Source: a virus
Lineage: Duplodnaviria; Heunggongvirae; Uroviricota; Caudoviricetes
Strand: one strand, 5' to 3'
Length of the DNA stretch: 11,126 nucleotides
Virus record (IMG/VR): IMGVR_UViG_2695420564_000012
Positions 985 to 9,353 of the stretch are shown one piece after another. The translations under genes were made by a program, and so were the position numbers. The notes beneath the pieces were generated by a model. That model was not told the DNA's origin. It saw nothing but the letters and a program-made list of their open reading frames with translations, and did not search any database. Position 1 is the stretch's first letter, and each line of letters starts with the position of its first letter.

Positions 985-1481
985 CAGTGATGACGCTCAA
1001 TCTCGTCGAAAAACAGCCAGCAGCTATGCGCCGGATAATTGGTAAGCATCTTGCCGTCCCTCGCTGGCAGGATACATGTGATTATTATAATCAGATGATG
1101 GAGCGCGAACGGCTAACAGTTTGCTTTCATGCGCAGTTAAAACAACGTCACGCAACGATGTGTTTTGAAGAAATGAACGACGTCGAACGTGAACGACTGG
1201 TATGTGCAATTGATGAATTGCGTGGGGCATTCTCAAAACGCCGTCAGGTTGGCGCAAGTGAGTATGCATATATTAGTTTTTTAACAGTCAGTCAGCGTCG
1301 TACTTTATTTATGCATGCCGGATTGACTGAAAAAGAATTCAACCAGCCATACTGGCGAATTAATGAAGAATCATGTTACTGGCGTGATGCTTTATTCCGT
1401 GCATTACGTGAATTATTCAGCCTGTTTGAGTATGCACCGACAATTCTGACGTCGGTAAAACCAGAGCAATATCTGCATTAA
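975..1481 (+). CDS. B: P2 gpB-like replication protein (DnaB helicase loader-type)
   Basis: 168-aa ORF with GGAGG SD at 968-972. Sequence (MTLNLVEKQPAAMRRIIGKHLAVPRWQDT...) matches my recollection of P2 B nearly throughout. Lies upstream of A in the same operon. Confidence 0.85.
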   Translation: MEMTVMTLNLVEKQPAAMRRIIGKHLAVPRWQDTCDYYNQMMERERLTVCFHAQLKQRHATMCFEEMNDVERERLVCAIDELRGAFSKRRQVGASEYAYISFLTVSQRRTLFMHAGLTEKEFNQPYWRINEESCYWRDALFRALRELFSLFEYAPTILTSVKPEQYLH

Positions 1482-1544
1482 GTAATTAACCAGAGTTTTT
1501 AACGCACTTAATCGTGCGGGGCTTCTTTTTGCCTGGAGAAAGTC

Positions 1545-2556: not shown

Positions 2557-4869
2557 ATGGCCGTTAAAGCCTCCGGGCGTTTTGTCCCTCCGTCAGCATT
2601 TGCCGCAGGCACCGGTAAGACGTTTACCGGTGCTTATGCATGGAACGCGCCACGCGAGGCTGTCGGGCGCGAAAGACCCCTTACACGTGACGAGATGCGT
2701 CAGGTGCAAGGTGTTTTATCCACGATTAACCGCCTGCCTTACTTTTTGCGCTCGCTGTTTACTTCACGCTATGACTACATCCGGCGCAATAAAAGCCCGG
2801 TGCACGGGTTTTATTTCCTCACATCCACTTTTCAGCGTCGTTTATGGCCGCGCATTGAGCGTGTGAATCAGCGCCATGAAATGAACACCGACGCGTCGTT
2901 GCTGTTTCTGGCAGAGCGTGACCACTATGCGCGCCTGCCGGGAATGAATGACAAGGAGCTGAAAAAGTTTGCTGCCCGTATCTCATCGCAGCTTTTCATG
3001 ATGTATGAGGAACTCTGCGATGCCTGGGTGGATGCGCATGGCGAAAAAGAATCGCTGTTTACGGATGAGGCGCAGGCACATCTGTATGGTCATGTTGCTG
3101 GCGCTGCACGTGCTTTCAATATTTCCCCGCTTTACTGGCAAAAATACCGTAAAGGGCAGATGACCATGAGGCAGGCATATTCTGCCATTGCCCGCCTGTT
3201 TAACGATGAGTGGTGGACTCATCAGCTTAAAGGCCAGCGTATGCGCTGGCATGAGGCGTTACTGATTGCTGTCGGGGAGGTCAATAAAGACCGTTCTCCT
3301 TATGCCAGTAAACATGCCATTCGTGATGTGCGTGCGCGCCGCCAGGCAAATCTGGAATTTCTTAAATCGTGTGACCTTGAAAACAAGGAAACCGGCGAGC
3401 GCATCGACCTTATCAGTAAGGTGATGGGCAGTATTTCTAATCCAGAAATTCGCCGGATGGAGCTGATGAACACCATCGCCGGTATTGAGCGTTACGCCGC
3501 CGCAGAGGGTGATGTGGGGATGTTTATCACGCTGACCACGCCGTCAAAGTATCACCCGACACGTCAGGTCGGAAAAGGAGAAAGTAAAACCGTCCAGCTT
3601 AATCACGGCTGGAACGATGAGGCATTTAATCCAAAGGATGCGCAGCGTTATCTCTGCCGTATCTGGAGCCTGATGCGCACGGCATTCAAGGATAATGATT
3701 TACAGGTCTACGGTTTGCGTGTTGTTGAACCACACCACGACGGAACGCCGCACTGGCATATGATGCTTTTTTGTAATCCACGCCAGCGTAACCAGATTAT
3801 TGAAATCATGCGTCGCTATGCGCTCAAAGAGGATGGCGACGAAAGAGGAGCCGCGCGAAACCGTTTTCAGGCAAAACACCTTAACCGGGGCGGTGCTGCG
3901 GGATATATCGCGAAATACATCTCAAAAAACATCGACGGCTATGCACTGGATGGTCAGCTCGATAATGATACCGGCAGGCCGCTGAAAGACACAGCTGCTG
4001 CTGTTACCGCATGGGCGTCAACGTGGCGCATTCCGCAATTTAAAACGGTTGGTCTGCCGACAATGGGGGCTTACCGTGAACTACGCAAATTGCCTCGCGG
4101 CGTCAGCATTGCTGATGAGTTTGACGAACGCGTTGAGGCTGCACGTGCCGCCGCAGACAGTGGTGATTTTGCGTTGTATATCAGCGCGCAGGGTGGGGCA
4201 AATGTTCCGCGTGATTGCCAGACTGTCAGAGTCGCCCGTAGCCCGTCGGATGAAGTTAACGAGTACGAGGAAGAAGTCGAGAGAGTGGTCGGCATTTACG
4301 CGCCGCATCTCGGCGCGCGTCATATTCATATCACCAGAACGACGGACTGGCGCATTGTTCCGAAAGTGCCGGTCGTTGAGCCTTTGACGTTAAAAAGCGG
4401 CATCGCCGCGCCTCGGAGTCCTGTCAATAACTGTGGAAAACTCACCGGTGGTGATACTTCGTTACCGGCTCCCACACCTTCTGAGCACGCCGCAGCAGTG
4501 CTTAATCTGGTTGATGACGGTGTTATCGAATGGAGTGACCCGGAGGTCGTGAGGGCGCTCAGAGGTGCATTAAAACACGGTCGGAGAACGCCAAGTCGTC
4601 AGCAAAGAAACGGAAGCCCGTTAAAACCACATGAAATTGCACCATCGGCCAGACTGACCCGGTCGGAAAGAATGCAAATTACCCGTATCCGCATTGACCT
4701 TGCTCAGAACGGTATCAGGCCTCAGCGATGGGAGCTTGAGGCGCTGGCGCGTGGAGCGAGAGTAAATTATGGTGATATGTCATTCAAATTTCCAATTGAT
4801 GATCGATTTTATGATGATGTTAACTCTTTGAATTTATGGAGTATTGAGTCTCGTGTGAACTTCACATAA
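2557..4869 (+). CDS. A: P2 gpA-like rolling-circle replication initiator (HUH endonuclease family)
   Basis: Long ORF with an HUH-type motif (GTPHWHMMLF) and a tandem-tyrosine motif (YIAKYISKNIDGY) typical of phiX174/P2 A-type initiators. Extensive match to my recollection of P2 A. The ORF-track start at 2515 is a TTG; ATG 2557 (MAVKASGRF) is the likely start. Confidence 0.92.
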   Translation: MAVKASGRFVPPSAFAAGTGKTFTGAYAWNAPREAVGRERPLTRDEMRQVQGVLSTINRLPYFLRSLFTSRYDYIRRNKSPVHGFYFLTSTFQRRLWPRIERVNQRHEMNTDASLLFLAERDHYARLPGMNDKELKKFAARISSQLFMMYEELCDAWVDAHGEKESLFTDEAQAHLYGHVAGAARAFNISPLYWQKYRKGQMTMRQAYSAIARLFNDEWWTHQLKGQRMRWHEALLIAVGEVNKDRSPYASKHAIRDVRARRQANLEFLKSCDLENKETGERIDLISKVMGSISNPEIRRMELMNTIAGIERYAAAEGDVGMFITLTTPSKYHPTRQVGKGESKTVQLNHGWNDEAFNPKDAQRYLCRIWSLMRTAFKDNDLQVYGLRVVEPHHDGTPHWHMMLFCNPRQRNQIIEIMRRYALKEDGDERGAARNRFQAKHLNRGGAAGYIAKYISKNIDGYALDGQLDNDTGRPLKDTAAAVTAWASTWRIPQFKTVGLPTMGAYRELRKLPRGVSIADEFDERVEAARAAADSGDFALYISAQGGANVPRDCQTVRVARSPSDEVNEYEEEVERVVGIYAPHLGARHIHITRTTDWRIVPKVPVVEPLTLKSGIAAPRSPVNNCGKLTGGDTSLPAPTPSEHAAAVLNLVDDGVIEWSDPEVVRALRGALKHGRRTPSRQQRNGSPLKPHEIAPSARLTRSERMQITRIRIDLAQNGIRPQRWELEALARGARVNYGDMSFKFPIDDRFYDDVNSLNLWSIESRVNFT

Positions 4870-4872
4870 TAT
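4844..4872 (+). promoter_or_regulatory. Candidate sigma70-type promoter for the cargo genes (TTGAGT - 17 nt - TAATAT), overlapping the 3' end of A
   Basis: Hexamers read directly at 4844-4849 and 4867-4872 with a 17-nt spacer, about 50 nt upstream of the SIR2 ATG. Pattern match only. Confidence 0.25.
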
Positions 4873-4923
4873 GGGGCCGTTGTAGGTGTTTGAACAATCA
4901 GACTTCAATTCAAAGGGATAATT

Positions 4924-6171
4924 ATGGTTATTTATCAAGGTGGTAAGATAATATCTGAAGATGATTTTTATTCTCATCTTTATTCGTTATGTCAGTTGGA
5001 TAATGTAGGGGTTCTTTTAGGCGCGGGAGCATCGGTCGGATGTGGCGGCCAAACTATGAAGCAGGTATGGCAGTCTTTTAAATATGAACATCCTGACCTG
5101 TTGAATTTGTTACTAGAAAAATACTTATTGGTTGACAAAACTGAATCTGAAAAAGATATAGTTAATGTTGAGCTTCTAATTGATGAAGTAACTAAATTCT
5201 TGTCTGTGGCGAAAACAAGACGTAATGAAGACGAACAAAAAGAAATTAGTTTAATATTAAGTGCTTTGTATAAACAAGTAACAAGGGCTGCATTGTTAAC
5301 TGGAGAAGAGTTTGGCTGTAAAAATCAAGGGAAGAAAAAACAGTTTAAGTTTCATAAAGAATTAATTTCAAAATTGATTTCAAATAGGCAGCCGGGACAA
5401 TCGGCTCCGGCACTTTTTACTACCAACTATGATTTGGCATTAGAGTGGGCAGCTGAAGATTTAGGAATTCAGCTATTTAATGGTTTTTCAGGGTTGCATA
5501 CAAGACAATTTTATCCTCAAAATTTTGATTTGGCATTTAGAAATGTCAATGCAAAAGGGGAGGCTAGATTTGGTCATTATCACGCTTATCTATATAAATT
5601 GCATGGCTCTCTTACATGGTATCAGGATGATTTTTTAATGGTTAATGAGATAAGTGCATCTCAGGCATATGACAATTACATTAAAAATATTATTAATGGT
5701 GACGGTTTTTACTATGGTCAACATTTGATTTATCCGGGAGCTAATAAATATAGCCATACAATTGGTTTTGTTTACGGTGAAATGTTTAGGCGTTTTGGCG
5801 AGTTTTTGTCAAAACCTCAAACCGCTTTGTTTATTAATGGGTTTGGATTTGGTGATTATCATATAAACAGAATAGTTTTTGGTGCTTTGTTAAATCCGTC
5901 ATTTCATGTTGTTATTTATTACCCTGAACTGAAGAATGCTTTAGATAAAGTTAGTAGAGGCGTTGCTTCTGAAGGTGAAAAAGCAATTGATGCTTTAAAA
6001 AATATGCAATTCAATCAAGTGACTATCGTGGGTGGAGGTTCAGATGCTTACTTTGATAGTTTTGTGAAACATCTTCCTTATCCGGTGTTGTTCCCAAGAG
6101 AAAATACTGTTGATGACTTGGTTGAAGCTATTTCTAAATTGTCTAAAGGGGAAGGGAATGTCGCATTTTAA
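4924..6171 (+). CDS. sir2: SIR2-family (SIR2_2-like) protein, predicted NAD+-consuming effector
   Basis: GAGAS glycine-rich motif near residue 35, TTNYD motif near residue 168 and LHGS near residue 227, the characteristic triad of prokaryotic defence SIR2 domains. AGGGA RBS at 4913-4917. AT-rich relative to flanking phage genes. Confidence 0.85.
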   Translation: MVIYQGGKIISEDDFYSHLYSLCQLDNVGVLLGAGASVGCGGQTMKQVWQSFKYEHPDLLNLLLEKYLLVDKTESEKDIVNVELLIDEVTKFLSVAKTRRNEDEQKEISLILSALYKQVTRAALLTGEEFGCKNQGKKKQFKFHKELISKLISNRQPGQSAPALFTTNYDLALEWAAEDLGIQLFNGFSGLHTRQFYPQNFDLAFRNVNAKGEARFGHYHAYLYKLHGSLTWYQDDFLMVNEISASQAYDNYIKNIINGDGFYYGQHLIYPGANKYSHTIGFVYGEMFRRFGEFLSKPQTALFINGFGFGDYHINRIVFGALLNPSFHVVIYYPELKNALDKVSRGVASEGEKAIDALKNMQFNQVTIVGGGSDAYFDSFVKHLPYPVLFPRENTVDDLVEAISKLSKGEGNVAF

Positions 6172-7978
6172 ACTATCTGAATTATCTGCTATTGGGTATG
6201 TCGTTGGTCTGGAGGGCGAAAAAATAAGGATAAATCTTCATGAAGGATTGCAAGGTAGACTCGCCTCTCATAGGGATGGCGTTAGTTCTGTTACTCAGCC
6301 TGGAGATTTGATCGGTTTTGATGCCGGAAATATTCTGGTTGTGGCTCGAGTTACAGATATGGCATTTGTCGAGGCTGATAAAGCACATAAGGCAAAAATA
6401 GGTACATCAGATATAGCAGATATGCCGTTAAGGCAAATAATAGCCTATGCAATAGGTTTTATTAGACGAGATATAGATGGATGTGTTTTTGTTTCGGAAG
6501 ACTGGAGATTACCTGCTCTGGGAGCATCCGCTGTCCCGTTAACATCTGATTTTTTAAACATCGTATATAGTATTGATAAAAATGATCTGGATAAAGCAAT
6601 TGAGTTAGGAATAGATTCGAGGACTAAATCAGTTAAAGTTTTAGCTAGCATTGATAAATTACTAACTAGGCATATGGCTGTTTTGGGCAGTACTGGATAT
6701 GGTAAATCTAATTTTAATGCTTTACTTACACGCCGAATTTCAGAACAGTACCCTAATGCAAGAATAGTAATTTTTGATATTAATGGCGAGTATTCTCAGG
6801 CTTTTGAAGGTGTTGCTAATGTTAAACATACTATTTTAGGTGAGTTACCAAAAGGAGAGATTCCAAAACCACCTCTACAGAAAGGAGATATATTTTCTGA
6901 GAGTGAACATTACTACTATAGAAAAATACCTTATCAAGCATTGGGATTTGCTGGGTTGATAAAATTACTACGCCCTAGTGATAAGACACAATTACCTGCA
7001 TTAAGAAATGCGCTTAATGCTATAAATAGTGTTCATTTTTCCGATGATTCATTCTTTCTTAAGAATGAAGTAGGGGGCGTATTTAATATTTTTGATGATT
7101 GTAGAGATGAAGGGCAAGAGCTTTTATCTGCGTGGTTGAGCTTCTTAAGAAAAGGGACGCTGTGTAAGGCAAATAAATGGCCGCCGTTTAAAAGTATTGC
7201 TAACTTGGTTGCGGAGTTTGGTTGCGTGGCGGCGGATTCGCGAAAAGCTGGATCTAGTAAACGAGATGCTTTTAGCTATGGTAATGTTCTGCCATTGATT
7301 AAGATAATTCAACAGTTATCAGAGGATTCTAGATTCAAGTATGTTGTTGATTTAAATGGAGGTGGTGAATTATTAGGTGATGGCAAACATTGGGAATTAG
7401 CTATGAAACAGGAAGTTGATTATTTCTTTGGTAAAGAAAAGGGAGAGGAGAATGACTGGAATATTCATATTGTTAATTTTAAGCATCTTTCACAAGATCA
7501 TGCTCCAATGCTGTTAAGTGCATTATTAGAAATGTTTGCTGAAGTTCTCTTTCTTAGAGGTCAAAACAAAGCTTTTCCAACCGTGTTACTTCTTGAAGAG
7601 GCGCACCATTATTTAAGAGATCCTTATTCTGAAGTTGATGCTCAAATTAAAGCTTATGAAAGACTTGCCAAAGAAGGGCGTAAATTTAAATGTTCACTTA
7701 TTGTGAGCACACAACGACCATCAGAGCTTTCATCAACAGTATTAGCAATGTGTGCAAATTGGTTTTCGTTGCGCTTGACAAATGAGCGTGATTTGCAGAC
7801 TTTACGGTATGCGATGGAAAGTGGAAATGAGTTAATGATTCGGCAGATTTCTGGGCTTCCCAGAGGAGATGCAATAGCGTTTGGTGCTGCTTTTAATATA
7901 CCCGTAAGAATTTCAATTCACCCTGCTGTACCCGGTCCGAGATCGTCTGACGCAAGTTATTCTCAAGAATGGCGATAA
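6158..7978 (+). CDS. herA: HerA-family ATPase (FtsK/HerA superfamily)
   Basis: Walker A LGSTGYGKS (~res 177-184), Walker B VLLLEEAHH (~res 476-484) and HerA-typical STQRPS motif (~res 517-522), with a ~300-aa insertion between the Walker motifs and an N-terminal domain of ~170 aa. ATG 6158 has a strong SD (AAGGGGAAGGG) and overlaps the SIR2 3' end by 14 nt. The ORF-track start at 6110 is a TTG. Confidence 0.85.
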   Translation: MSHFKLSELSAIGYVVGLEGEKIRINLHEGLQGRLASHRDGVSSVTQPGDLIGFDAGNILVVARVTDMAFVEADKAHKAKIGTSDIADMPLRQIIAYAIGFIRRDIDGCVFVSEDWRLPALGASAVPLTSDFLNIVYSIDKNDLDKAIELGIDSRTKSVKVLASIDKLLTRHMAVLGSTGYGKSNFNALLTRRISEQYPNARIVIFDINGEYSQAFEGVANVKHTILGELPKGEIPKPPLQKGDIFSESEHYYYRKIPYQALGFAGLIKLLRPSDKTQLPALRNALNAINSVHFSDDSFFLKNEVGGVFNIFDDCRDEGQELLSAWLSFLRKGTLCKANKWPPFKSIANLVAEFGCVAADSRKAGSSKRDAFSYGNVLPLIKIIQQLSEDSRFKYVVDLNGGGELLGDGKHWELAMKQEVDYFFGKEKGEENDWNIHIVNFKHLSQDHAPMLLSALLEMFAEVLFLRGQNKAFPTVLLLEEAHHYLRDPYSEVDAQIKAYERLAKEGRKFKCSLIVSTQRPSELSSTVLAMCANWFSLRLTNERDLQTLRYAMESGNELMIRQISGLPRGDAIAFGAAFNIPVRISIHPAVPGPRSSDASYSQEWR

Positions 7979-8132
7979 TCTTGTGGGAGAATGTAATAGG
8001 ATAACGATAAATGCATCTATCTGCATTAATTCGAATAAGGTTGAGAGGAGTTCAAAAACAAATTTAGACCGGCATTAGAGTGGTTCAGATAGACATATGC
8101 AACTGCATTAAAACCGCCCCGTGAAGCGGGCG

Positions 8133-8151
8133 GGCGAGGCGGGGAAAGCAC
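8133..8151. other. P2-type cos cohesive-end sequence (GGCGAGGCGGGGAAAGCAC), joined as in a prophage
   Basis: 19-nt string matches the P2 cohesive end as I recall it. Lies in a GC-rich non-coding stretch just downstream of the portal gene, the expected position relative to Q. Adjacent inverted repeat CCGCCC/GGGCGG at 8114-8133. Confidence 0.65.
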
Positions 8152-8293
8152 TGCGCGCTGGCGGTGGTGCTGATTTTATTTTTTCAGCGTCTGAGCGCGT
8201 CGTGATGGCGTTTAGATTGTGCGCCGGGGCGTTGGTGTGTCTGCGGGCTGTTTTGTGCGGTGTTGAGCGTGTGAGGGCGTGATGACGGGGTGT

Positions 8294-8315
8294 AAAAAAG
8301 CCGCCCGCAGGCGGC
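8294..8315 (-). terminator. Rho-independent terminator of the P-Q (terminase-portal) operon
   Basis: Perfect 6-bp GC stem GCCGCC/GGCGGC (8300-8305 / 8310-8315) with a 4-nt loop, followed on the - strand by a U6 run (A6 at 8294-8299 on +). Located 5 nt downstream of the portal stop. Confidence 0.7.
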
Positions 8316-8320
8316 GATGT

Positions 8321-9310
8321 TCAGCCGTTGTCAGTGTCCAGTGAGTAGTTTTTAAAGCGGATGACCTCCTGACCGAGCCAGCCGTTTATCTCGCGGATCC
8401 TGTCCTGTAGCGGGATAAGCTCATTGCGGACAAAGACCTTTGCCACTTTCTCAATATCACCCAGCGACCCGACGTTCTCCGGCTTGCCGCCCATCAACTG
8501 AAAGGGGATGCGGTGCGCGTCCAGCAGGTCAGTGGCGCTGGCTTTTTTGATATTAAAAAAATCGTCCTTCGTTGCCACTTCACTGAGCGGGATAATTTTA
8601 ATGCCGTCGGCTTTCCCCTGCGGGGCATAGAGAAACAGATTTTTAAAGTTGTTGCGGCCTTTCGACTTCACCATGTTTTCGCGAAGCATTTCGATATCGT
8701 TGCGATCCTGCACGGCATCGGTGACGTACATGATGTATCCGGCATGTGCGCCGTTTTCGTAATACTTGCGGCGGAACAGCGTGGCCGATTCATTCAGCCA
8801 GGCAGAGTTAAGGGCGCTGAGATATTCCGGCAGGCCGTACAGCTCCTGATTAATATCGGGCTCCAGCAGGTGAAACACGGAGCCGGGCGTGAAAGGTGTC
8901 GGCTCGTTGAAGGACGGCACCCACCAGTAAACATCCTCCTCCACCCCACGGCGGGTATATTTTGCCGGTGAGGTTTCCAGTCTGATGACCTTACCGGTGG
9001 TGCTGTAACGCTTTTCCAGAAACGCATTACCGAACACCAGAAAATCCAGCACAAAGCGGCTGAAATCCTGCTGGGAAAGCCACGGATGCGGGATAAATGT
9101 CGACGCCAGAATATTGCGTTTGACGTAAATCGGGGAGCTGTGATGTACGGCAGCACGCAGGCTTTTTTCCAGACCGGTAAAGCTGACCGGTGGCTCATAC
9201 CATCTGCCGTTACTGATGCACTCGACGTAATCCAGAATGTCACGGCGGTCGAGTACCGGCACCGGCTCACCAAAGGTGAATGCCTCCATTTTCGGGGCGC
9301 TGGCGGTCAT
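8321..9310 (-). CDS. Q: P2 gpQ-like portal protein; native start appears to be ATG at 9354 but is out of frame because of an A7/T7 homopolymer
   Basis: 329-aa ORF matching my recollection of the P2 portal (MTASAPKMEAFTFGEPVPVLDRRDILDY...). An ATG at 9354 with GGAG SD overlaps the terminase stop and encodes MSKKKGKTPQPAAKK before hitting TGA. One extra A would fuse the frames to 344 aa. Confidence 0.9.
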   Translation of the reverse strand: MTASAPKMEAFTFGEPVPVLDRRDILDYVECISNGRWYEPPVSFTGLEKSLRAAVHHSSPIYVKRNILASTFIPHPWLSQQDFSRFVLDFLVFGNAFLEKRYSTTGKVIRLETSPAKYTRRGVEEDVYWWVPSFNEPTPFTPGSVFHLLEPDINQELYGLPEYLSALNSAWLNESATLFRRKYYENGAHAGYIMYVTDAVQDRNDIEMLRENMVKSKGRNNFKNLFLYAPQGKADGIKIIPLSEVATKDDFFNIKKASATDLLDAHRIPFQLMGGKPENVGSLGDIEKVAKVFVRNELIPLQDRIREINGWLGQEVIRFKNYSLDTDNG

Positions 9311-9353
9311 TTTTTTGCCGCAGGTTGCGGTGTTTTCCCTTTTTTCTTGCTCA

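What the first reader, a model, noticed from the sequence alone, without database searches (positions are those of the whole stretch)
4770..8112. Sharp compositional island: AT-rich cargo begins inside the 3' end of gene A and ends just before cos
Flanking phage genes are GC-balanced to GC-rich, whereas from about 4770 to about 8112 the sequence is visibly AT-rich (roughly one-third GC by eye). The switch occurs inside the last ~30 codons of A, so the C-terminal tail of this replication initiator appears to be encoded by cargo-derived DNA. This would mark the left recombination junction of the hotspot within A, with the right junction just left of the cos hairpin. No tin- or old-like ORF is present.
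Basis: partly seen in the sequence, partly recalled or inferred. Interest (0 to 1): 0.55.

Follow-up and report, generated by a model that had tools for sequence, protein, structure and literature searches.

The report
SIR2–HerA defence cargo in P2 hotspot
The AT-rich island is real, but it is a known two-gene anti-phage defence system (SIR2–HerA, "Nezha" type) sitting in the well-known swap-in slot of P2-like phages between replication gene A and the cos site; the one less ordinary detail is that the slot's left edge lies inside gene A, whose last 32 codons travel with the cargo.

Summary
Observation confirmed. GC falls from 0.53 (A core) to 0.36 and rises again to 0.54–0.61. Maximum-likelihood change-points are at 4762 (4751–4774) and 8113 (8097–8117). 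Homology to P2 and most peduoviruses breaks at 4771 and resumes at 8098–8104, 29–35 nt left of the 19-nt cos overhang (8133–8151).

The island encodes SIR2 (4924–6171) and HerA (6158–7978). Both align full-length to the solved E. coli SIR2–HerA/Nezha complex (PDB 8J4U; 82% and 77% aa identity). Rousset et al. 2022 already list this cargo in this gpA–gpQ hotspot (188 loci), so the cargo and its location are known.

The junction is inside A (last 32 codons; GC3 0.28 against 0.53 upstream), and tail plus cargo move as one unit between different A backgrounds. The tail is not simply cargo DNA. Its first 13 codons keep the gpA tail motif (F-x-[YF]-P-x-x-D-x-[WF]) in register (27 of 100,000 shuffles score as well). 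Across 24 cargo types every gpA has such a tail, and its ending tracks the adjacent cargo. The distal "DDVNSLNLW" part occurs only with P2-borne SIR2–HerA: 7 of 7 collection hits and 15 of 15 E. coli genomes.

Ordinary overall, with a modest new detail about the hotspot boundary.

The parts
2557..4752 (+). gpA replication initiator, conserved core (P2-type)
   Evidence: Pfam Phage_GPA, 7e-123. 96.4% nt identity to P2 A across 2557-4771. The CDS start follows the RefSeq annotation of the same-cargo locus L001.
4395..4435 (+). P2-type ori inside A (projected nick at about 4415)
   Evidence: The 41 nt are identical to P2 around its annotated nick site at 29892. This stretch is 91-93% identical even to the distant L101. 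It lies upstream of every junction seen: 4771, 4706, 4658 and 4552.
4753..4818 (+). Hypervariable but homologous part of the gpA C-terminal tail (transition zone)
   Evidence: Among 24 cargo types, nt pairwise identity drops from at least 0.85 to 0.5-0.8 here, while F(codon +4) is kept in 24/24, Y(+6) in 22/24 and W(+12) in 22/24. The window has F, F, P, D, F at these positions. Profile test.
4810..4869 (+). Distal gpA tail specific to the SIR2-HerA module (YDDVNSLNLWSIESRVNFT plus stop codon 4867-4869)
   Evidence: No similarity among different cargo types from codon +16 onward. The F-x-DD-x-NSLN-x-W block is conserved in four divergent SIR2-HerA-carrying peduovirus lineages, with synonymous changes at the N and S codons. 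A pattern scan found it 6/6 (IMG/VR) and 1/1 (metagenomes) times next to gpA and SIR2.
4865..4870 (+). Invariant CATAAT hexamer overlapping the A stop codon; candidate -10 element for the cargo (not validated)
   Evidence: Invariant in five lineages that are about 25% diverged. The consensus scan called no + strand sigma-70 promoter of at least 9/12 anywhere in 4500-8400.
4870..4923 (+). Leader with ribosome-binding site AAAGGG (4912-4917)
   Evidence: AAAGGG followed by ATG is invariant in five lineages. This stretch is 100% identical to L001 and L042.
4924..6171 (+). SIR2 NADase subunit (415 aa), Nezha cluster
   Evidence: PADLOC SIR2 PDLC02186, 6.9e-189, full length. NCBIfam SIR2_antiphage 500.9 bits against a cutoff of 500. 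PDB 8J4U_A, 1.7e-233, residues 1-415 to 1-415; 81.7% identity. GAGAS at 33, TTNYD at 166, KLHGS at 225.
6158..7978 (+). HerA ATPase/helicase subunit (606 aa); its start overlaps the SIR2 end by 14 nt
   Evidence: PADLOC HerA PDLC02185, 2.7e-272. PDB 8J4U_M, E = 0, 1069.7 bits, full length; 76.6% identity. Walker A GSTGYGKS at 177 and Walker B LLLEEAH at 477. NCBIfam HerA_antiphage 703 bits, below its 800 cutoff.
7979..8097 (+). AT-rich 3' spacer of the cargo
   Evidence: GC 0.36. 97-98% identical to same-cargo loci and unrelated to other cargo types.
8098..8151 (.). cos: conserved left arm with hairpin (8114-8133) and the 19-nt cohesive end GGCGAGGCGGGGAAAGCAC (8133-8151)
   Evidence: 8104-8151 is 100% identical to the right end of P2, which is annotated cosR. 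Identity among 32 cargo types jumps at 8097/8098. Hairpin.
8321..9310 (-). Portal gene Q (right flank of the hotspot)
   Evidence: Pfam Phage_portal. Annotated as portal protein in L001.

Best explanation
The island (4771 to about 8097) is a SIR2-HerA ('Nezha'-type) abortive-infection defence operon. It is carried as exchangeable accessory cargo in the known hotspot of P2-like phages between replication gene A and cos/Q.

How the cargo works (from the literature on its 77-82%-identical solved relative, not tested here): SIR2 and HerA assemble into one large complex. On infection the complex depletes NAD+ and shows ATPase, helicase and nuclease activities, which arrests the infected cell.

How the island got its shape (inferred from comparative data): cassettes in this slot are swapped between P2-like phages by recombination. 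The right crossover is pinned at the conserved cos arm (8098 onward). The left crossover falls in the conserved 3' part of A, downstream of ori (about 4415). The last 23-32 codons of A therefore lie within the exchanged segment and are inherited with the adjacent cargo. In this window the gpA tail is a strongly diverged allele: its first 13 codons are still gpA-like, and its distal part is found only with P2-borne SIR2-HerA. This allele was recombined, together with SIR2-HerA, into an otherwise P2-type A gene at about 4752-4771.

The low GC of the operon matches that of its nearest non-phage relatives in marine gammaproteobacteria with about 40% GC genomes, which are a plausible ultimate source (inference).
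For: Cargo identity. Hotspot identity: the window has P2 early genes, A, cos, Q and P. The flanks are 96-100% identical to P2 while the insert is unrelated. 32 cargo clusters were found in 51 loci. Rousset 2022 (PMC9122126) describes this gpA-gpQ hotspot and its Table S5 lists 'SIR2 | DUF87 = SIR2 + HerA' with 188 occurrences.

Tail linked to cargo: the same tail occurs in all same-cargo loci, and each proximal cargo cluster has its own tail ending. There are no mismatches over 4753-5074 against same-cargo loci whose A at 4401-4752 differs by 7-9%. The E. coli backbones of three SIR2-HerA variants are 96-99% identical while their modules are only 72-78% identical. In the divergent phages L086 and L070, backbone (73-78%) and module (about 77%) have diverged in parallel. 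The tail element sits next to gpA and SIR2 in 7/7 collection hits. In 5,426 E. coli genomes the tail DNA is found only with SIR2 (15 genomes).

Tail is gpA-derived. Source composition: Vibrio, Photobacterium, Shewanella, Marinomonas and Paraferrimonas loci with 55-62% aa identity have no gpA or gpQ, and their flank GC (0.36-0.44) is about the same as their gene GC (0.37-0.40). V. cholerae Nezha lies on a genomic island (PMC11559045). Mechanism from the literature: PMC13434337 and PMC11514289.
Against: No activity was measured, and the proteins are 18-23% diverged from the characterised Nezha. HerA is below the NCBIfam equivalog cutoff (703 against 800). No convincing + strand promoter was found for expression from a repressed prophage. 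The tail is AT-rich in every SIR2-HerA lineage, including those where backbone and cargo co-diverged (tail GC 0.37-0.39 in L070 and L086). Plain hitch-hiking of a donor phage's A end does not by itself explain that composition. The direct donor lineage was not found. The recombination pathway is inferred from mosaic patterns only.
Confidence: 0.8

Rival explanations
1. One reading: an illegitimate recombination event fused foreign (cargo-donor) DNA in frame to A at about 4771, so the 32-codon tail is cargo DNA with no ancestry in gpA.
For: Tail GC (0.31) and GC3 (0.28) match the cargo and not A. By hand count from the alignment, only about 42% nt identity to P2 remains in codons 0-15. Codons 16 onward have no counterpart in other cargo types. 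The NSLN-x-W block is found only with SIR2-HerA.
Against: The proximal 13 codons fit the gpA-tail profile in a fixed register (27 of 100,000 shuffles; better than all 3,110 island-derived 13-mers). Tails of other cargo types form a continuum from canonical to strongly diverged. Non-phage SIR2-HerA loci have unrelated upstream DNA. L083 retains a decayed stretch of about 200 nt of A 3' sequence between its truncated A and SIR2, which shows that A-derived DNA travels with the module.
Confidence: 0.12
2. Dual-use sequence: the 3' end of A is AT-rich and co-inherited with the cargo because it contains the cargo's promoter or regulatory region, which is needed to express SIR2-HerA from a prophage whose early operon is repressed. 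This is compatible with the best explanation and adds a selective reason for the linkage.
For: The cargo is co-oriented with A and starts only 54 nt after the A stop, so any private promoter must overlap the A tail. The CATAAT hexamer overlapping the A stop is invariant in five lineages that are about 25% diverged. The tail is AT-rich in all SIR2-HerA lineages.
Against: No + strand sigma-70 match of at least 9/12 in 4500-8400, and total promoter-like hits (10) do not exceed the shuffle expectation (11.9). No conserved -35 sits 16-18 nt upstream of CATAAT; the invariant TTGAAT is 31 nt away and is explained by the conserved L-N codons. A 6-mer in AT-rich DNA is weak evidence.
Confidence: 0.3
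3. Functional co-adaptation: the gpA tail allele is tuned to the defence cargo, for example so that the prophage's own nicking and rolling-circle replication does not set off its resident SIR2-HerA. Selection, and not mere adjacency, would then keep tail and cargo together.
For: The module-specific tail block is conserved at the amino-acid level through synonymous changes (aac/aat; tct/tca/tcc) in lineages about 25% diverged. A different Sir2-HerA subtype is reported to be triggered by phage replication proteins and stimulated by nicked or end-exposed DNA (PMC13434337).
Against: Adjacency alone predicts the same linkage. In the L083 and L084 variants A is truncated 55-90 codons early and the tail is untranslated or absent, yet these are the majority (31 of 46) of E. 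coli loci. There is no evidence of any gpA-SIR2-HerA contact.
Confidence: 0.05
4. The compositional island is not horizontally acquired but reflects local mutational or selective bias within an ordinary phage region.
For: None beyond the fact that accessory regions of phages are often AT-rich.
Against: Both edges are discrete steps with delta-lnL of about 53. Both coincide to within a few bases with homology breaks against dozens of relatives that carry other cargo.
Confidence: 0.01

Closest known systems
E. coli SIR2-HerA / Nezha (PDB 8J4U, 8SU9, 8SUB, 8SUW, 8SXX, 8UAE, 8UAF)
   Same: Same two-gene order with overlapping genes. Both proteins align over their full length (SIR2 1-415 to 1-415; HerA 1-605 to 1-602). 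The catalytic N/H blocks and the Walker A/B motifs are conserved. It falls in the same 70%-identity cluster that Zhang et al. 2026 call Nezha. The PDB SIR2 is 100% identical to locus L084, which is itself cargo of the same gpA-gpQ hotspot in an E. coli P2-like prophage.
   Different: SIR2 is 18% and HerA 23% diverged at the aa level, and the genes 22-28% at the nt level. In the L084-type locus A is truncated (homology ends at window 4552; annotated as a pseudogene) and the NSLN-x-W tail element is absent. Here A is intact, with a 32-codon alternative tail.
P2 old/tin region: the gpA-gpQ hotspot of P2-like phages (Rousset et al. 2022, PMC9122126)
   Same: Same slot with the same conserved flanks (A on the left, cos and Q on the right). 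The insert is AT-rich (P2 cargo GC 0.35). Defence function. SIR2+HerA is already listed there as system 14 with 188 loci.
   Different: P2 carries orf91, tin and old, with tin and old on the opposite strand and the canonical 23-codon A tail. Here the operon is co-oriented with A and the break lies 32 codons before the A stop. The published descriptions I could read define the hotspot by whole genes and do not mention a boundary inside A.
Nezha of Vibrio cholerae classical biotype (PMC11559045) and related marine gammaproteobacterial SIR2-HerA
   Same: Homologous SIR2-HerA pair (55-62% aa identity). NAD+-depleting anti-phage function has been shown for the V. cholerae system. Similar GC of about 0.37-0.41.
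   Different: Located on chromosomal islands without gpA, gpQ or cos. The composition matches the host genome, so there is no GC step. Upstream DNA is unrelated to the window's tail and leader.

Membership tests
SIR2-HerA (Nezha-type) anti-phage system | Adjacent, co-oriented SIR2 and HerA genes forming one operon | tested here: met
   SIR2 4924-6171 and HerA 6158-7978 on the + strand with a 14-nt overlap. Same annotation in RefSeq locus L001.
SIR2-HerA (Nezha-type) anti-phage system | SIR2 subunit of the defence-associated family, full length, with the catalytic Asn/His dyad | tested here: met
   PADLOC PDLC02186, 626 bits, residues 1-412 to 3-408 of 412. NCBIfam SIR2_antiphage 500.9 against a cutoff of 500, so barely above. 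8J4U_A full-length alignment. TTNYD 166-170 and KLHGS 225-229 are present. The role of the dyad is taken from PMC11514289.
SIR2-HerA (Nezha-type) anti-phage system | HerA-family ATPase partner with Walker A/B motifs | tested here: met
   Pfam DUF87/HerA, 7e-22. PADLOC HerA PDLC02185, 902.7 bits, nearly full length. 8J4U_M, 1069.7 bits. GSTGYGKS at 177 and LLLEEAH at 477.
SIR2-HerA (Nezha-type) anti-phage system | HerA reaches the NCBIfam equivalog cutoff (HerA_antiphage NF042943, 800 bits) | tested here: not met
   703 bits against a cutoff of 800. The model alignment is still end-to-end (13-605 to 1-566), so this reflects divergence (76.6% to the Nezha HerA) and not a different architecture.
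SIR2-HerA (Nezha-type) anti-phage system | Falls within the Nezha cluster as defined by Zhang et al. 2026 (SIR2 clustered at 70% identity) | tested here: met
   81.7% ungapped identity to 8J4U_A. Cluster definition from PMC13434337.
SIR2-HerA (Nezha-type) anti-phage system | Confers phage resistance through NAD+ depletion / abortive infection; forms a SIR2 dodecamer-HerA hexamer complex | not testable with these tools
   Known for the 8J4U-type system from the literature.
Cargo of the P2-like phage gpA-gpQ (old/tin) hotspot | Lies between replication gene A and cos plus portal gene Q of a P2-like phage | tested here: met
   gpA (Pfam Phage_GPA, 7e-123). The cos 19-mer is identical to P2 cosR. 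Portal and terminase on the - strand. Cox, DUF2732, DUF5405 and the TraR-type zinc-finger early genes lie upstream.
Cargo of the P2-like phage gpA-gpQ (old/tin) hotspot | Flanks conserved, insert replaced by unrelated genes in close relatives | tested here: met
   88 phage records and 2,197 E. coli genomes match the flanks, but only 24 genomes match the whole region. 32 cargo clusters among 51 loci.
P2 old or tin exclusion genes | Sequence similarity to P2 Old (AAA ATPase / exonuclease) or Tin | tested here: not met
   tblastn of P2 Tin, Old and Orf91 against the window: best E-values 1.4, 0.79 and 7.6.
Phage 'moron' (autonomous accessory transcription unit) | Own promoter upstream and terminator downstream, with composition distinct from the phage | tested here: inconclusive
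   The distinct composition is met. No + strand sigma-70 match of at least 9/12 was found; there is only an invariant CATAAT. No terminator-like site lies between the HerA stop and cos; the nearest + strand site is at 8155-8170, beyond cos.

The most novel reading that the evidence does not exclude
In P2-like phages the defence hotspot does not stop at the gene boundary. Each cassette would bring its own C-terminal peptide for the essential replication initiator gpA, and that tail would be functionally matched to the cargo. It might carry the cargo's promoter inside coding sequence, or it might tune gpA so that the prophage's own nick-dependent replication does not trigger its resident SIR2-HerA. 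On this reading, swapping a defence system also edits the replication protein.
Probability: 0.07. Interest if true: 0.6.

Novelty: already known. Interest (0 to 1): 0.22.

Why it matters
The main result is a clean negative for novelty. The island is a textbook example of the P2 A-cos defence hotspot carrying a catalogued and structurally solved type of system (SIR2-HerA/Nezha).

Two by-products may be useful to specialists. First, the hotspot's left boundary lies inside gene A, downstream of ori. The last 23-32 codons of gpA form a hypervariable segment that still holds its motif, and its ending is inherited with the neighbouring cargo. Gene-based definitions of the hotspot ("between gpA and gpQ") miss this. 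It gives a nucleotide-level marker for tracing cassette exchange, and it shows that an essential replication protein is routinely made chimeric by cargo swapping.

Second, the Nezha system used for the published structures is itself P2-hotspot cargo, from prophages whose A gene is truncated. That bears on how the system is expressed natively and on whether its carrier prophages are still viable.

Tried and rejected
(1) Sigma-70 promoter scan of 4500-8400. It found no + strand site of at least 9/12, and the total count was below the shuffle mean. My hand-picked TTGAGT(4845)-17-TAATAT(4868) scores only 8/12, so I do not claim it.

(2) The invariant TTGAAT (4828-4833) as a -35 for the invariant CATAAT. 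Rejected: the spacing is 31 nt, and TTGAAT is explained by the conserved Leu-Asn codons.

(3) Looking for the tail and leader DNA upstream of non-phage SIR2-HerA (L088-L096). Nothing related was found. At 55-62% aa identity non-coding DNA would not be expected to survive, so this is weak evidence against a cargo origin.

(4) Using L101 (gpA C-terminal region 56%, SIR2 87% identical) to map the module edge in a foreign backbone. It turned out to belong to the L070 lineage, and identity is 0.5-0.8 throughout with no sharp switch.

(5) Older P2 literature (Odegrip 2006 by DOI; Nilsson 2004). Neither is held in the library, so I cannot exclude that the boundary within A was noted there.

(6) tblastn of P2 Tin, Old and Orf91 against the window: no similarity.

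(7) The direct donor lineage of the window's tail was not found. L070 and L086 are about 25% diverged everywhere.

(8) Structure prediction, fold search and the large protein-database searches were not used. Full-length matches to solved structures made them unnecessary.

Full report

Yes. In a 300-nt sliding window, GC is 0.50-0.57 to the left of about 4750 and to the right of about 8100, and 0.30-0.42 in between. A binomial change-point analysis puts the left step at 4762 (2-lnL support 4751-4774) and the right step at 8113 (8097-8117). Each improves the log-likelihood by about 53 units. Segment GC values are:

| Segment | GC |
|---|---|
| A core 2557-4752 | 0.534 |
| A tail 4771-4869 | 0.313 |
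| SIR2 | 0.344 |
| HerA | 0.378 |
| 3' spacer 7979-8103 | 0.360 |
| cos region 8104-8320 | 0.613 |
| Q | 0.538 |
| P | 0.572 |

Third-codon-position GC is 0.53 in the A core, 0.28 in the last 32 codons of A, and 0.25 in both cargo genes.

**2. What is the window?**

It is a P2-like (Peduovirus) phage or prophage segment. It carries Cox, DUF2732, DUF5405, a TraR/DksA-type zinc-finger gene and gpA on the + strand, and the portal Q and terminase P on the - strand. The gene order is the same as in annotated E. coli prophages and in P2 itself. The 19-nt cohesive end GGCGAGGCGGGGAAAGCAC lies at 8133-8151, and 8104-8151 is identical to the annotated cosR end of P2. The P2 ori is also present. Window 4395-4435 is identical to the 41 nt around P2's annotated nick site, which places the nick at about 4415, 356 nt upstream of the left junction.

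**3. What is the cargo?**

There are two co-oriented ORFs that overlap by 14 nt.

- ORF 4924-6171 (415 aa) matches the PADLOC SIR2 model of the SIR2-HerA system end to end (6.9e-189). It also matches NCBIfam SIR2_antiphage (500.9 bits against a cutoff of 500) and chain A of PDB 8J4U over residues 1-415 (1.7e-233), with 81.7% identity.
- ORF 6158-7978 (606 aa) matches PADLOC HerA (2.7e-272), Pfam HerA/DUF87 and 8J4U chain M (1069.7 bits), with 76.6% identity. It is below the NCBIfam equivalog cutoff (703 against 800).

The Sir2 Asn/His blocks (TTNYD 166-170, KLHGS 225-229) and the HerA Walker A/B motifs (GSTGYGKS 177-184, LLLEEAH 477-483) are intact.

8J4U is the "Nezha" system. Zhang et al. 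2026 define it as one cluster at 70% SIR2 identity, so this cargo belongs to that cluster. [quoted passage not shown] None of this was tested here.

There is no similarity to P2 Tin, Old or Orf91.

**4. Is this already known?**

Yes. Rousset et al. 2022 (PMC9122126) describe the region between gpA and gpQ as a defence hotspot, with 18,150 loci and 1,650 gene arrangements. Their Table S5, the table of P2-encoded loci, lists system 14 as "SIR2 | DUF87", 188 occurrences, "SIR2 + HerA (Gao et al., 2020)". Its HerA N-terminus is almost identical to the one here. In the complete RefSeq E. coli genomes, 24 of 5,426 carry the whole 4000-8500 segment, with a best identity of 97.8% and the expected annotation. 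An IMG/VR contig (L098) encodes proteins that are 99.9-100% identical.

**5. The junctions**

Right side. Among representatives of 32 cargo clusters, pairwise identity is at random level up to 8096, at least 0.7 from 8098 and about 1.0 from 8105. This is a sharp edge, 35 nt left of the cos nick and just left of the hairpin at 8114-8133.

Left side. Identity to P2 and to most of 88 phage records and about 2,200 E. coli genomes ends at 4771. A few extend to 4802 and a few stop earlier.

The left edge is not a clean break, however. I used 80 IMG/VR loci plus P2 and E. coli loci, with one representative for each of 24 proximal-cargo clusters.

- Up to codon -7 (window 4750), nt pairwise identity is at least 0.85.
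- From codon -6 to +15 (4753-4818) it is 0.5-0.8.
- From codon +16 (4819) it is at random level.

In the middle zone the amino-acid pattern persists: F at +4 in 24/24, Y at +6 in 22/24, P at +7 in 19/24, D at +10 in 17/24, W at +12 in 22/24. Many tails have a second W near +21.

The window's tail GDMSFKFPIDDRF... has F, F, P, D, F at those positions. Scored with a profile built from 47 distinct tails of other cargo types, it exceeds all 3,110 13-mers from six-frame translation of the island, and only 27 of 100,000 of its own shuffles reach it. The first 13 codons after the break are therefore a diverged gpA tail and not arbitrary foreign DNA.

**6. The tail travels with the cargo**

All same-cargo loci share the identical 32-aa tail. 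Every proximal cargo cluster has its own tail ending, for example ...STVMEW[TK] with orf91-type cargo...LLPI/SLPI with another cluster, and ...EDITDIKW with a third.

Against three independent same-cargo loci, the window differs at 31 of 352 positions in A 4401-4752, at none of 322 positions in 4753-5074, and at 1.2-1.9% of positions in the cargo genes. The unit that moved thus begins at about 4753-4771.

The distal tail block F-x-DD-x-N-S-L-N-x-W recurs in four divergent SIR2-HerA-carrying peduovirus lineages:

- this window and L085;
- L070 and L101;
- L086 and L100 (Scandinavium type);
- L083, where it is a decayed remnant lying untranslated behind a premature stop codon.

The N and S codons differ synonymously between these lineages. 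A degenerate 32-nt pattern for this block found 6 stretches in 2.9 million viral contigs and 1 in the metagenome collection. All seven have gpA upstream and SIR2 downstream. In E. coli the tail DNA occurs only in the 15 genomes that have this SIR2 type.

**7. History**

The three E. coli SIR2-HerA variants (this one, the L083 type, and the L084/Nezha-PDB type) sit in backbones that are 96-99% identical in A and Q. Their modules are only 72-78% identical, and their left junctions differ: 4771, 4658 and 4552. In the divergent phages L086 and L070, backbone (73-78%) and module (about 77%) have diverged in parallel.

I read this as long residence of SIR2-HerA in peduoviruses, with occasional recombination of diverged alleles into the E. 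coli P2-type backbone. The left crossovers would fall in the 3' part of A, always downstream of ori, and the right crossover at cos.

The nearest non-phage relatives (55-62% aa identity) are in Vibrio, Photobacterium, Shewanella, Marinomonas and Paraferrimonas. They have no gpA or gpQ nearby, and their genome GC (0.36-0.44) equals the gene GC. V. cholerae Nezha is on a genomic island. This makes genomes with about 40% GC a plausible ultimate source of the low GC, but that is an inference.

**8. What stays unexplained**

The tail is AT-rich in all SIR2-HerA lineages (0.31-0.39), even where the rest of A is 0.54-0.57. Hitch-hiking explains the linkage but not the composition.

One possibility is that the tail doubles as the cargo's promoter region. 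The operon starts 54 nt after the A stop and is co-oriented with the early operon, which is repressed in a P2 lysogen (the repression is from my own knowledge of P2 biology, not tested here). A CATAAT overlapping the A stop is invariant in five lineages. Against this, no convincing sigma-70 promoter was found. Relaxed constraint with AT-biased mutation is another possibility, and so is a true foreign origin of codons 13-32. I could not discriminate between these.

**9. Verdict**

The feature is a known system in a known hotspot, so overall interest is low. The within-A boundary and the cargo-linked gpA tail are a modest refinement. I did not find them described in the papers available to me.

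Noticed in passing
window 9310-9316 (- strand: 5' end of portal gene Q): The window has a run of 7 T where L001 and L085 have 8. On the - strand this 1-nt difference puts a stop codon after the first 15 codons of the annotated 344-aa portal ORF, so the longest Q ORF here starts at the internal ATG (9310; 329 aa, MTASAPKMEAF...). It could be a real frameshift or a homopolymer sequencing error.
   Followed up: partly
L084 (NZ_LR134222, E. coli NCTC11129) 3768-9079; L083 (NZ_CP019245) 3720-9091: The SIR2 of PDB 8J4U (Nezha) is 100% identical to the L084 SIR2, and the first 102 aa of HerA are also identical. L084 is cargo of the same P2 gpA-gpQ hotspot. In these variants A is truncated: in L084 it is annotated as a pseudogene with homology ending at window-equivalent 4552, and in L083 it is 706 aa with homology ending at 4658, followed by a decayed A 3' remnant. 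Both retain ori. 31 of the 46 E. coli genomes with this SIR2 family are of these two types. Whether such prophages can still replicate is unknown.
   Followed up: partly
L053, L054, L055 (IMG/VR), A 3' end: Three loci with another cargo of about 2.15 kb have A ending early (...HIRVVLAQHGI*), with nucleotide homology to the window's A ending at window-equivalent position 4706. This is another case of the hotspot eroding into A.
   Followed up: no
window 4381-4455: There is a peak of conservation inside A: 91-93% nt identity even to the distant L101, whose surrounding A sequence is 50-75% identical. It coincides with the P2 ori nick region.
   Followed up: partly
L087 (JAEYGZ010000011.1, 'MAG: Bacillota bacterium'): This 7-kb contig is labelled as Bacillota, but it carries a truncated gpA (94% aa identity to the window over the 93 residues that remain), a Nezha-type SIR2-HerA and a gpQ 98% identical to the window's. 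It is almost certainly an enterobacterial P2-like prophage fragment that was mis-binned into the MAG.
   Followed up: no
window 1201-1500 and 1801-2100: There are minor GC dips (0.40 and 0.38) within the early-gene region, over the 168-aa ORF 975-1481 (no Pfam hit) and the DUF5405 gene. They are much weaker than the main island.
   Followed up: no
L070 2300-2313 and L086 (equivalent position), leader upstream of SIR2: In the two divergent lineages the invariant CATAAT sits inside a small inverted repeat TGAAT-CATA-ATTCA. This repeat is not present in the window or in L083, and its significance is unknown (seen by eye in the alignment).
   Followed up: no
L098 (IMGVR_UViG_2684622669_000023): This IMG/VR contig encodes gpA at 99.9% and SIR2, HerA and the covered part of gpQ at 100% identity to the window. 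It is probably the same phage or the source of the window.
   Followed up: no
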